Shown one piece after another: positions 21,053-63,028 of a DNA stretch of 64,000 bases. The notes beneath the pieces were generated by a model. The model worked only from the letters and a program-made list of their open reading frames with translations, was not told the DNA's origin and searched no databases. A program made the translations under genes and the position numbers. This DNA comes from Octopus vulgaris (Eukaryota). The stretch lies in NCBI GenBank assembly GCA_951406725.2, contig OX597828.1, forward strand, positions 68,634,001 to 68,698,000. The letters are read 5' to 3'. Position 1 is the stretch's first letter. Each line of letters opens with the position of its first letter.

Positions 21053-21255
21053 TCGCCATGATAGATCGTTCGCCACTACACACATTTTTTTCGCTCCTTG
21101 TTTCTCTCCTTGTTTTTTTCTGTGTCCCTTTCTGTATAAGAGCGTAGGCTCGAAATGTAAAAGACTTTTTTCTATTCCTGAGCATTATACTAATACATCT
21201 GTTTGTTTTGTACACCACCTGTCTTCGTCTTTTGTTTTTTTCGTAAACTCTCCCT
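21053..21255 (+). mobile_element. Short TA-embedded repeat carrying a variant hammerhead-like motif (family H)
   Basis: CTTT-CTGTATAA-GAGCgtagGCTC-GAAAT-GTA-AAAG; eight related copies in the window. Confidence 0.75.
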
Positions 21256-21481
21256 ATATATATATATGTGTATGTATATATATATATATATATATATATA
21301 TATATATATATATATATATATATATATATTTAAATATATATATGAGACCCTCTCGCAGAAGCCGCTATTCCGGAGAGCCTAGGCATGATAATTAAAGATA
21401 TCATCATTAGCCGATAGGTTAGAAATCCTAATTCAAACACCAATCATAATACTATTCTATATTTTTGAGATGAGGAATTAT

Positions 21482-21578
21482 GTATATTATTTACAATGGA
21501 CGGATAGATGTCCTCGTCTTGTTTGTTGTTATCGCAAACAAGATGAGGGCACCTATCCGTCTATTGTAAATAATGTAC
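21482..21578 (+). other. 97-nt long hairpin (44-bp arms, 9-nt loop)
   Basis: 21482-21525 is the reverse complement of 21535-21578 with 5 transition mismatches. Confidence 0.85.
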
Positions 21579-23507
21579 CAGTCACAATGCTATTAATTAA
21601 ATGGCTAATCTAGAGTGATTAGATAGGACATTAATTAATTGTAGCGAATCATTCGGTTTATGCTGAGGATAATAGAGCTAAACATCTTAGTCAAGAGTCA
21701 CGTCTAAGAAGTTCGCTAATTTAGTGCTATTTCAAGAAAAAAAAGGTAGATAATAATTCTTAGAAACCATGGAGGTCCTTCTGGGTACTTCAACGGACGG
21801 TTGGGACATACTGTTGGCTGTGAGAATAGCATCATTCTTGTAAAACCCCCGGATATGCTAGGGAAGTGCTGGTTTATTTGAGAGAGAAGGAAAAGACCGA
21901 CTTGACCTTATCATTTGTCTGGCATTTCAACTAACACAAAGGAATGTGTCCTACATCCAAAGGAGACATTAAATCCACCACCGTAACAATAGTGCAAGCT
22001 ATCAAAGGGACTTTCATGTAGTCATTTCATTTGCTAAATATAGCAACCAAATTTCTCGCAAATCACATCTTACCAGTTCAAAAAACGAAAGATACAGAAG
22101 ATAATATAGTAATATATATAGAAAAAATATGGGATGGGCACGGATGGAAGACATTAATAATATGTTGCTTCGATCTAGTCTGATTTGGTGCTAAAAACAA
22201 CAAGAAACGTAGAGTTGAAAGACGACAAATACTACAATCATCACAACAGCACTGCCGCTGTTCCTGTTGCTGCTGATGGTGAAGGTGATGATGAAGGTAG
22301 TGATGATGATAATGACGATAATAGAAATATCAAACTGTTTTTAGAGATATTTGTTATTTTACGGAAGACTACATCTAAATGAAATCTGTGACAAAGTTTG
22401 TCAAGATCCGCCTCTTGTGTGAGGAAACACCCTCCATTCTCACATTAAGGTGGCGTTTGTGAACAGCAGCAGCAGCATCCATCGATGCCATTCGCACTGC
22501 CTCTCCATCTCATCCTTCACATATGCCTTAGTTCACCTCCTAAGGTGCTTGTTTTCATTCGTCATTTTTGTTTATATATTTTTCTTCCTGGCAGAAGGCG
22601 GTGCTCCAGAATGGCCGTAACCACGCAGCATAAAGCAAACTGAGTCTGTCTACTTATTTACCAGTTTATCGTTCTCTCCTCTGATTCTTTCTTTCTCTCA
22701 CGCACTCTCTCTCTCTCTCTCTCTCTCTCTCTCTCTCGTTAATTCGTCTTTCTCGTTTTTTCTCACCGTAACGCAATTTCTCTCCTCTCCGTCTCCTTAA
22801 AACCTAGCTAGAAATAGCAGCCAAATATTACTGGAATTACACTCTATTTTCTTAATGAAGTGAGCAACACATTGGACAACGTGAATACAAACATATAAAT
22901 AGACGGAATGGTCATGGATGGAATTCCTTTCATTATAATCTGCTCGATCACAACTGAGCTGCTATTGAAGAGTCTGTACGTAGAAAGTACACACGCATGT
23001 AGAAATACATATATACAAATATATATGTATATATATATGAGTAAATGTACACATATATGTATGTATATACATATAACTGTGCTTTTATGCGTAAGTATGT
23101 ACTCACTCACATAGAGAGGTCGGCTTAAGACCAACGGATTACTGAGGATCGGAAAGGGCTGGGGGAGAGAGTCTGTACATCTACATACACATACACATAT
23201 ATACATATATATATATATATATATATATATATATATATATACATACATACATACATATATCTATCTATCTATCTATCTATCTATCTATCTATCTATCTAT
23301 CTATCTCTCTCTCTCTCTATATATATATATATATATATATGTATGTATATATATATATATATATGTATATATGTATATGTATGTATATATATATATATAT
23401 GTATATATGTATATGTATATATATATATATATATATATATATATATATATATATATATATATATATATATATATATATATATATATATATATATATATAT
23501 ATATAAG

Positions 23508-23912
23508 TAGGCGTAGCTCTGTGGTAAGAAGTTTGCTTCCCAAATACATGGTTCCGGGTAGAGTCCCACTGCCTGGCACTCTGGACAAGATTCTTCTGTA
23601 TAGCCATGGACCGACCAAAGACATATGAGAGGATTTGGTAGGCCGTAACTGAAAGAAGCCCGTCGTGTATATATATACATATATAAATATAAATGTGTGT
23701 GTGTGCGTGCATCTTTATCCCCCACCATAGTTTGACAATCGGTGTTAGTGTGTTTAAGTACATATTATGTAGCGGTTCGAGAAAAGATTCGATAAAGTAA
23801 GTACCAGGCTTAAGAAAATAATAAGTACGGGGGTTGATTCGCCCCGATTAAATTCGAGAGGTGCCCCAGGATGGCTGCAGTCTAATGACTGAAATTGGTA
23901 AAAAGTATAAAA
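23508..23912 (+). mobile_element. SINE family A
   Basis: GTGGTAAGAAGTTTGCTTCCCAA...GGTTCCGGGT...GGCAC...ACTGAAAGAAGCCCGTCG...GGCTGCAGTCTAATGACTGAAA. Confidence 0.8.
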
Positions 23913-62620: not shown

Positions 62621-62643
62621 TAAATTTAATTATTTAATCGTTA

Positions 62644-62681
62644 CAGTTGAAAAGGTCTCAAAATGACCGAAACCGGTACTG
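62644..62681 (+). ncRNA. Minimal type I hammerhead with U3-A8 covariation (predicted cleavage after A62678)
   Basis: CAG-UUGAAAA-GGUC-ucaaaau-GACC-GAAA-CCGG-UA^-CUG; palindromic stem III ACCGGU. Confidence 0.6.
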
Positions 62682-62847
62682 AAATGTTCACTATAAAATT
62701 ATTTTAGCATTTTCTATTCTGACTTGTTTTTTCATATATATATATATATATATATATATATATATATATATGTGTGTGTGTGTGTGTGTGTGTGTGTGTG
62801 TGTGTGTGTGTGTGTGTGTGTGTGTGTGTGTGTATGTATGTATGTAA

Positions 62848-63028
62848 AGGGACAGTTTACGAAAAAAATCAAAAGACGAAGACAGGTGGTGTACAAAACA
62901 AACAGATGTATTAGTATAGCGCTCTTTTACGTTTCGAGCCTACGCTCTTCTACAGAAAGTGACACAGAAAAAACAAGGAGAGAAACAAGGAGAGAAAAAA
63001 TTGTGTGTAGTGGCTAACGATCTATCAT
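62848..63028 (-). mobile_element. Family H short repeat (motif at 62924-62959)
   Basis: CTTTTACGTTTCGAGCCTACGCTCTTCTACAGAAAG. Confidence 0.8.

What the first reader, a model, noticed from the sequence alone, without database searches (positions are those of the whole stretch)
21053..63028. Abundant ~160-200-bp repeat (8 copies) carrying a non-canonical hammerhead-like fold
Seen: motifs at 21128(+), ~35063(-), 46377(+), 47771(-), 52294(+), 52725(-), 55511(-) and 62924(-) share the consensus CUUU-CUGUNGAA-GAGC-guag-GCUC-GAAA-CG-UH-AAAG. This has type I topology: stem I CUUU/AAAG abuts the core, stem II is 4 bp, and stem III is the palindrome ACGU. The variable positions include N7 (A/U/G) and H17 (A/C), as in real hammerheads. 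The core deviates by A6U plus an extra A after A9. Known: an extra A at that position occurs naturally in the CChMVd hammerhead, but A6 is normally conserved. Inference: either a new core variant that standard searches would miss, or a dead ribozyme amplified inside a SINE-like Penelope derivative.
Basis: partly seen in the sequence, partly recalled or inferred. Interest (0 to 1): 0.7.

Follow-up and report, generated by a model that had tools for sequence, protein, structure and literature searches.

The report
Penelope-element hammerhead with fixed A6U core
These eight short repeats are the tail end of a very abundant, recently active jumping gene whose self-cutting-RNA (hammerhead) motif has one normally fixed core letter changed in the whole family while the rest is kept by selection, so it is likely a slowed-down but working variant, although cutting has not been tested.

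Summary
The eight copies are real. They are 5'-truncated ends of an autonomous Neptune-type Penelope-like retrotransposon, not a separate SINE. Twenty young long-ORF copies carry 36 motifs, all with U6; 16 have one in each pseudo-LTR. Genome-wide exact counts are U6 15,730, A6 180, G6 50. The extra A and the ACGU palindrome are published features of these minimal hammerheads; only A6U is unusual. In replicating lineages the core and stems show 0 inherited changes against 29-55 in held-out flanks, while N7 and H17 change repeatedly. That is hammerhead-type selection, which argues against a dead relic. Cleavage is not shown: 0 of 113 short and 0 of 87 long insertions begin at the predicted cut. 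Short copies run from an initiator-like site about 100 nt upstream of the cut to the priming site, which explains their ~200-bp size. Five independent mini-arrays join exactly at that site. Best reading: an attenuated, dimer- or protein-assisted hammerhead. The scan noted the same A6U motif in another genome (e1-9559914). New variant of a known kind.

The parts
21049..21254 (+). Copy 1 (A7 subfamily), from the initiator-like TCAGTC start to the 3' end; motif 21128-21163 with G8U and C15.2U damage
34972..35129 (-). Copy 2 (A7); motif 35097-35062 with stem II mismatch, A15.1U and stem I mismatch
46345..46484 (+). Copy 3 (U7 subfamily, ends approximate); intact U6 motif 46377-46412
47681..47871 (-). 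Copy 4 (A7), begins at the initiator-like TCAGTT site; intact U6 motif 47806-47771
52239..52405 (+). Copy 5, old and diverged (clusters with the GGGC/GCCC stem II group, C17); motif about 52296-52331
52635..52798 (-). Copy 6 (A7); intact U6 motif 52760-52725
55443..55581 (-). Copy 7 (U7); motif 55546-55511 with G5U and stem I mismatch
62849..63028 (-). Copy 8 (A7); intact U6 motif 62959-62924, short deletion just after stem I

Best explanation
The repeat is the 3' end (pseudo-LTR) of an autonomous Neptune-type Penelope-like retrotransposon, and its motif is a minimal type I hammerhead with A6U fixed across the family, likely a slowed-down ribozyme that would cut only as a dimer or with help from the element's protein. 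Shown: element anatomy, U6 in old and young subfamilies, purifying selection on core and stems in replicating lineages, uncut motif in the inserted copies. Inferred: transcription starts at an initiator-like site 96-111 nt upstream of the cut; reverse transcription is primed from a nicked (TA)n target at the element's own TA-rich tract about 100 nt downstream of the cut. A run from there to the RNA 5' end gives the ~200-bp copies, with one uncut hammerhead. In full transcripts two hammerheads 4.5 kb apart would pair through ACGU, cut slowly and be ligated to a unit circle, from which seamless longer-than-unit copies arise. A6U is predicted to damp cutting (weaker core, extra U6-A15.1 pair in the monomer), which an element whose polymerase must cross this site could tolerate or favour.
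For: Anatomy: RT (PF00078, E 2e-7) and GIY-YIG-like domain; 6 of 20 fetched copies have an intact 1064-1079 aa ORF, median pairwise divergence 0.7%; 36 of 36 motifs U6, two per element in 16 of 20. U6 in 96 of 97 copies not chosen by the motif; no other letter reaches 10% at position 6 in four runs with four organism labels, only N7 and H17 vary. Selection: on trees from half of the flank columns, inherited/private changes are 0/142-144 in 30 core and stem columns and 29-55/262-327 in 49 held-out flank columns (Fisher p 2e-5 to 4e-9, six replicates, 130 copies); N7 has 5-7 and H17 3-4 inherited changes. G17 is 132 of 15,730, background level. Stem I pair C-G versus G-C between this and the sister lineage. 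Natural A6C has low but detectable activity (PMC3088659 passages). A PLE hammerhead cuts only with its protein (PMC11167929). 68 of 87 long-copy junctions lie upstream of the inferred start site, seamlessly, and mini-arrays repeat one junction up to five times, as circles would give.
Against: No cleavage was measured. No insertion begins at the cut: 0 of 113 within 5 nt, 0 of 87 within 10 nt (about 2 expected at background), and 9 genome-wide (TA)-to-cut junctions (6 independent) against 91 at the start site. Deep mutagenesis of one type III hammerhead found low activity for single and double changes in the CUGA turn except the C3-G8 swap (PMC9901934 passage). The predicted monomer folds as a rod that buries ACGU (-10.8 versus -7.4 kcal/mol). 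The sister lineage shows U4C, a few G17 copies with shared flanks, and stem I mismatches, so catalytic constraint may be loose in this group. Cleavage was dispensable for insertion in vitro in PAc. Seamless long copies could also come from multi-unit masters such as the three-unit array at C6:117.39 Mb. The stem II G-C pair was found with a pattern that required both changes, so it is weak evidence.
Confidence: 0.5

Rival explanations
1. The motif no longer cuts; the hammerhead-derived fold or rod hairpin is kept as a binding, dimerisation or positioning signal for the element's protein near the priming site.
For: No junctions at the cut. A6U adds a U6-A15.1 pair and favours a rod. Loop 2 is also unchanged across seven subfamily consensuses. 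In PAc the RT start lies just downstream of the hammerhead and cleavage is dispensable in vitro. The sister lineage tolerates other core changes.
Against: The two positions that change repeatedly are exactly those a catalytic hammerhead leaves free (N7, H17), H17 avoids G, and C3, G5, G8, A9, G12-A14 and U16.1 never change. N7 would pair in the rod, yet A, C and G are common there (74 of 97 copies). The sister lineage with A6 also shows no start at the cut (0 of 17).
Confidence: 0.32
2. Conservation reflects an overlapping linear signal (downstream promoter element, splice acceptor or other protein site) and the hammerhead likeness is only ancestry.
For: The motif lies 70-110 nt downstream of the inferred start site; the A7 subfamily reads as a pyrimidine tract plus UAG (sequence); D. 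virilis Penelope has an intron near its start site (PMC2377424 passages) that ends at the hammerhead.
Against: The UAG exists only in A7 copies; stem I changes on both sides between lineages; no splice-like joint was listed (contigs, weak).
Confidence: 0.1
3. Dead relic: A6U killed the ribozyme once and the motif has been copied passively ever since.
For: Inserted copies decay neutrally: private changes per column are alike in motif and flank (4.9 versus 5.4, p 0.52). Four of eight window copies are damaged.
Against: Inherited changes are absent from core and stems but common in flanks, over subfamilies from about 20% to 1.5% divergence from their consensus.
Confidence: 0.05

Closest known systems
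Minimal type I hammerheads in pseudo-LTRs of metazoan Penelope-like elements (Cervera and de la Pena 2014, PMC4209133; read: parts 1-2 of 4 of the main text and passages of supplement file 2)
   Same: Place in both pseudo-LTRs, U-rich 5' flank, short helix I, extra nucleotide after A9, G10.1-C11.1, palindromic helix III, many solo copies, predicted dimer action
   Different: Position 6 is U, not A; helix II is 4 bp; the paper's core variant is U3-A8, and no A6 change was seen in what I read
Natural hammerhead core variants A6C and U4C (Perreault et al. 2011, PMC3088659; passages)
   Same: Changes confined to positions 4 and 6 of the CUGA turn; low but detectable activity reported
   Different: A6C is one phage sequence; here A6U is fixed in over 15,000 copies and in young autonomous elements
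PAc, Poseidon element of Anolis (Frangieh et al. 2024, PMC11167929; parts 1-2 of 4)
   Same: Internal RT start downstream of the hammerhead, AT-rich target, uncut RNA as the dominant template, no ends seen at the cut
   Different: Canonical core; hammerhead overlaps the ORF start, whereas here the ATG is 727 nt downstream of the cut; Poseidon clade
Neptune clade PLEs (Craig et al. 2021, PMC8557442; passages and supplement passages)
   Same: C-terminal GIY-YIG with CX2-5CxxC linker, microsatellite targets, partial tandems, 5' inversions
   Different: Clade not tested by a tree; that paper calls canonical hammerheads universal in such PLEs, and its CUGANGA descriptor would miss this one
Non-LTR retrozymes (PMC7229834 passages; bioRxiv 10.64898/2026.07.22.740005 parts 1-2 of 5)
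   Same: The 440-620 nt mini-arrays elsewhere in this genome have one hammerhead per unit and derive from a PLE pseudo-LTR
   Different: The window copies are monomers; each mini-array has its own junction and is not an amplified family; circular RNA untested

Membership tests
EN+ Penelope-like element | Single ORF with RT | tested here: met
   PF00078 above cut-off; 6 of 20 intact ORFs
EN+ Penelope-like element | C-terminal GIY-YIG endonuclease | tested here: met
   PF01541 E 0.006, below Pfam's cut-off; motif and Cys/His residues visible in the translation and like the Neptune rows
EN+ Penelope-like element | Partial-tandem pseudo-LTRs with variable 5' ends, inversions | tested here: met
   16 of 20; junction spread and inverted 5' pieces
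Neptune clade | CX2-5CxxC linker before the endonuclease; (TA)n targets | tested here: met
   CX4CX2C; all 20 3' ends run into (TA)n
Neptune clade | Placement by RT phylogeny (versus Nematis, Hydra) | not tested
   No reference sequences were held in a usable form
Minimal type I hammerhead of PLEs | CUGANGA box | tested here: not met
   U at position 6 in 96 of 97 copies and 15,730 versus 180 exact matches; C3, U4, G5, G8, A9 kept
Minimal type I hammerhead of PLEs | Extra nucleotide after A9, G10.1-C11.1, GAAA box, palindromic helix III | tested here: met
Minimal type I hammerhead of PLEs | Helices I and II paired, with compensatory change | tested here: met
   127 of 128 cells paired in 16 hand-picked copies; stem I change is one lineage event; stem II change was required by the search pattern
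Minimal type I hammerhead of PLEs | NUH cleavage triplet, H not G | tested here: met
   H17 A/U/C; G17 132 of 15,730
Minimal type I hammerhead of PLEs | Self-cleavage at H17 | not testable with these tools
   Indirect genomic test found no ends at the cut
Rfam hammerhead families | Covariance-model match | tested here: not met
   0 matches at E<=10 on L229:3300-3520; none among the 150 of 371 rows shown for the window
SINE | Own short non-autonomous master, separate from the autonomous element | tested here: not met
   Longer copies continue upstream into the 3' UTR and ORF, also for the A7 and G7 subfamilies
Non-LTR retrozyme | Tandem units each with a type I hammerhead | tested here: not met
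   Window copies are dispersed monomers; met only by mini-arrays elsewhere

The most novel reading that the evidence does not exclude
A6U is a naturally selected, working hammerhead core that acts as a tuned-down switch: single hammerheads stay uncut and give tens of thousands of ~200-bp start-to-primer insertions, paired ones cut and circularise unit RNA, and template jumps at the RNA 5' end keep founding new retrozyme-like mini-circles. This would give PLE hammerheads an in-vivo job, show the birth of retrozymes from a PLE, and widen the hammerhead core consensus used in genome searches.
Probability: 0.3. Interest if true: 0.72.

Novelty: new variant of a known kind. Interest (0 to 1): 0.52.

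Why it matters
What hammerheads do in Penelope-like elements is still open (PMC8557442 and PMC11167929 say so). Here a very successful lineage has changed a core position thought to be fixed, yet keeps the rest under selection, and young intact elements exist for testing. Either result is informative: cutting widens the natural core consensus, and no cutting points to a non-catalytic role for the fold. Descriptor searches for CUGANGA miss over 15,000 copies in this genome alone. The junction maps also explain how a SINE-sized repeat can arise from an autonomous element, and show mini-arrays that look like nascent retrozymes.

Tried and rejected
Rfam: no hammerhead match listed. A hidden canonical master behind the U6 copies: rejected; the 30 A6 loci inspected (of 180) mostly sit in the same subfamilies as U6 copies, though about six resemble older subfamilies, and the young intact elements have U6. 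Expression: no RNA holder listed on record and no raw reads, so transcript ends could not be tested; contigs showed no splice-like joint and no end pile-up, which proves nothing. Splicing as the cause of the -96 junctions: no GT-AG at the joints. Flank-only tree test was circular, so it was redone with held-out columns; a tree from all columns gave 4/129 versus 72/549, p 0.001. Pfam on short fragments gave nothing. Folding of the longer 185-nt context gave low and inconsistent stem probabilities, so no larger conserved fold is claimed. Papers not available: Lunse et al. 2017 on small PLE hammerhead dimers and a recalled mutational review; Cervera supplement file 1 was not searchable. A6 variants could be described there. 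Literature searches that found no natural A6U or cephalopod report: (listings only).

Full report
Observation. All eight motifs are in the window at the stated places. Four keep the whole pattern and four carry extra damage. The window lies in a 2.8-Gb genome in which the 27-nt core occurs exactly 15,730 times with U at position 6, 180 times with A and 50 times with G; reversed controls give 0. In 444 kb of unselected DNA a profile found 27 hits, 22 of this family and 5 of a sister family. Twelve of the 22 match the 27-mer exactly (counted by eye), which suggests very roughly 30,000 copies; the sample is local.

What the repeat is. Copies share a fixed 3' end that runs into (TA)n and have variable 5' ends. 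Longer copies continue upstream through a pyrimidine-rich 3' UTR into a reverse transcriptase and endonuclease frame. A search with that peptide gave 11,669 candidates, 150 scored, many with identical scores and long open frames. I fetched 20 of those with the longest frames. Six have an intact ORF of 1064-1079 aa, and median pairwise divergence is 0.7%. The ORF has RT (PF00078, E 2e-7) and a weak GIY-YIG match (E 0.006, below cut-off), with a CX4CX2C linker like the Neptune rows in the supplement of PMC8557442. The clade was not tested by a tree. Sixteen of the 20 have the motif in both pseudo-LTRs about 4.5 kb apart, and all 36 motifs have U6. The window's own A7 subfamily is also found downstream of RT frames. 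So the repeat is the end of an autonomous Penelope-like element, not a SINE.

How unusual the motif is. Cervera and de la Pena (PMC4209133, parts 1-2 of 4 and supplement passages) give the metazoan PLE consensus as a U-rich flank, CUGANGAH, G...C, GAAAN, palindrome, NUH. The extra A and the ACGU palindrome are therefore standard, and such motifs cut weakly and only as dimers. The one departure is A6U. Perreault et al. (passages) report a natural A6C with kobs below 0.1 per minute and a tolerated U4C. A deep mutagenesis paper (passage) found low activity for changes in the CUGA turn. Searches listed no natural A6U; Lunse et al. 2017 could not be read. The scan's note e1-9559914 describes the same motif in another genome; I did not check it.

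Selection. From 171 near-complete copies I resolved seven subfamilies, 1.5% to 20% from their consensus (one sister copy and three local duplicates left out). Among 97 copies not chosen by the motif, 96 have U6. Across six subfamily consensuses 0 of 30 core and stem columns vary against 39 of 97 flank columns; with the oldest group it is 3 of 30 against 42 of 97. A tree test with held-out flank columns (130 copies; query-selected copies, the sister copy and five duplicates dropped) gave 0 inherited and 142-144 private changes in the motif, against 29-55 and 262-327 in flanks. N7 and H17 changed 5-7 and 3-4 times. Private changes are as frequent in the motif as in flanks, so selection acts on replicating elements, not on inserted copies. 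G17 is at background (132). In four public runs with four organism labels only N7 and H17 reach 10% other letters inside the motif. A sister lineage (11,804 exact matches) keeps A6 but has U4C in 74 of the first 100 listed (counted by eye) and swaps one stem I pair from C-G to G-C. It also shows G17 and stem I mismatches in some copies, which points to loose catalytic constraint. The stem II swap (4 matches) was required by my pattern and is weak evidence.

Is it cut? Insertion junctions record the RNA templates. Among 113 copies chosen by a downstream word, none starts within 5 nt of the predicted cut, 11 start downstream and 102 upstream; 49 start between -91 and -120, nine exactly at the TCAG(T/A)C site (five G7 copies at -99 are local duplicates). 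Genome-wide, (TA)-to-cut junctions number 9 (6 independent) against 91 at the TCAGTC site; by my rough reckoning that is background. Among 85 loci of the 152 young copies that hold the 5' UTR word, 0 of 87 junctions lie within 10 nt of the cut, with about 2 expected. The sister lineage behaves alike (0 of 17), and so does PAc, whose hammerhead cuts only with protein and is dispensable in vitro. Absence at the cut is thus not specific to A6U, and seamless re-ligation would hide cutting.

An RNA 5' end upstream of the motif. Five independent mini-arrays (L287, L288 with its duplicate L304, L291, L338, L357) join five different 5' UTR or ORF positions to the same nucleotide, -96, with no splice signals and at most 1 nt of homology; L345 begins there. 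Units are 440-620 nt; L357 repeats one 492-nt unit with five identical junctions and ends at the normal 3' end. I infer that -96 (about -110 in A7) is the transcription start in the pseudo-LTR, as in D. virilis Penelope (passages), and that the polymerase jumps template there. All 20 long copies end where the element's own TA-rich tract, about 100 nt past the cut, merges with target (TA)n, which suggests priming by pairing at that tract. A run from this site to the start site gives the 160-210 bp copies seen in the window.

Mechanism. Shown: anatomy, fixation of U6, hammerhead-type selection, uncut motifs in insertions. Inferred: start site, priming site, template jumps. Predicted: slow cutting as a dimer or with the protein, and ligation to unit circles. 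The argument for circles is that 68 of 87 long copies pass the start site without a seam; multi-unit masters, such as the three-unit array on C6, are an alternative. Folding predicts that U6 pairs with A15.1 in a rod-like monomer, which would damp cutting further. I put 0.5 on an attenuated ribozyme, 0.32 on a non-cutting binding signal, 0.1 on an overlapping linear signal and 0.05 on a dead relic.

Verdict. A real and abundant feature of a known kind, with one core change that I did not find in print and that is maintained in young autonomous elements. It makes an open question about PLE hammerheads directly testable, but activity is unproven and the scan has met the motif before. New variant of a known kind, interest 0.52.

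Noticed in passing
G000 C8:18.60 Mb (L357), C1:188.9 Mb (L287), C1:190.1 Mb (L288), C2:43.7 Mb (L291), C5:64.05 Mb (L338), C2:121.3 Mb (L299): Mini tandem arrays of 440-620 nt units cut from the element's pseudo-LTR and 5' UTR, one U6 motif per unit; five join at exactly -96, L299 at -71. They look like nascent retrozymes made by rolling-circle or repeated template-jump copying.
   Followed up: partly
L245-L274 and genome-wide: Sister repeat lineage with a 3-nt loop 2, A6 kept, U4C in most copies, some G17 copies; 11,804 exact matches; 5' ends also cluster about 100 nt upstream. Its autonomous element was not identified.
   Followed up: partly
window 12166(-) and 44893(-): Two related motifs with a canonical CUGANGA box, a 5-6 bp stem II and GAAA but no ACGU palindrome, in purine-rich flanks; they may belong to the rearranged hammerheads that earlier scan notes describe in this genome.
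   Followed up: no
G000 C6:117.39-117.40 Mb (L351): Three 5' UTR words spaced about 4.47 kb apart; the fetched part shows a seamless tandem of the full unit.
   Followed up: partly
15-30 nt downstream of the cut in both lineages: A short CC(U/C)GAGCG word is shared by the U6 and sister lineages and could pair with the 3' strand of stem II as an alternative fold; not tested.
   Followed up: no
window 24382-25080(-), 28950-29315(+), 30854-31496(+), 11471-11788(+): Fragments that look like a LINE RT C-terminus, a GIY-YIG endonuclease, a Tc1/mariner-type transposase and another LINE end (translations; names from recalled motifs, no family scan). No host exon was recognised.
   Followed up: no
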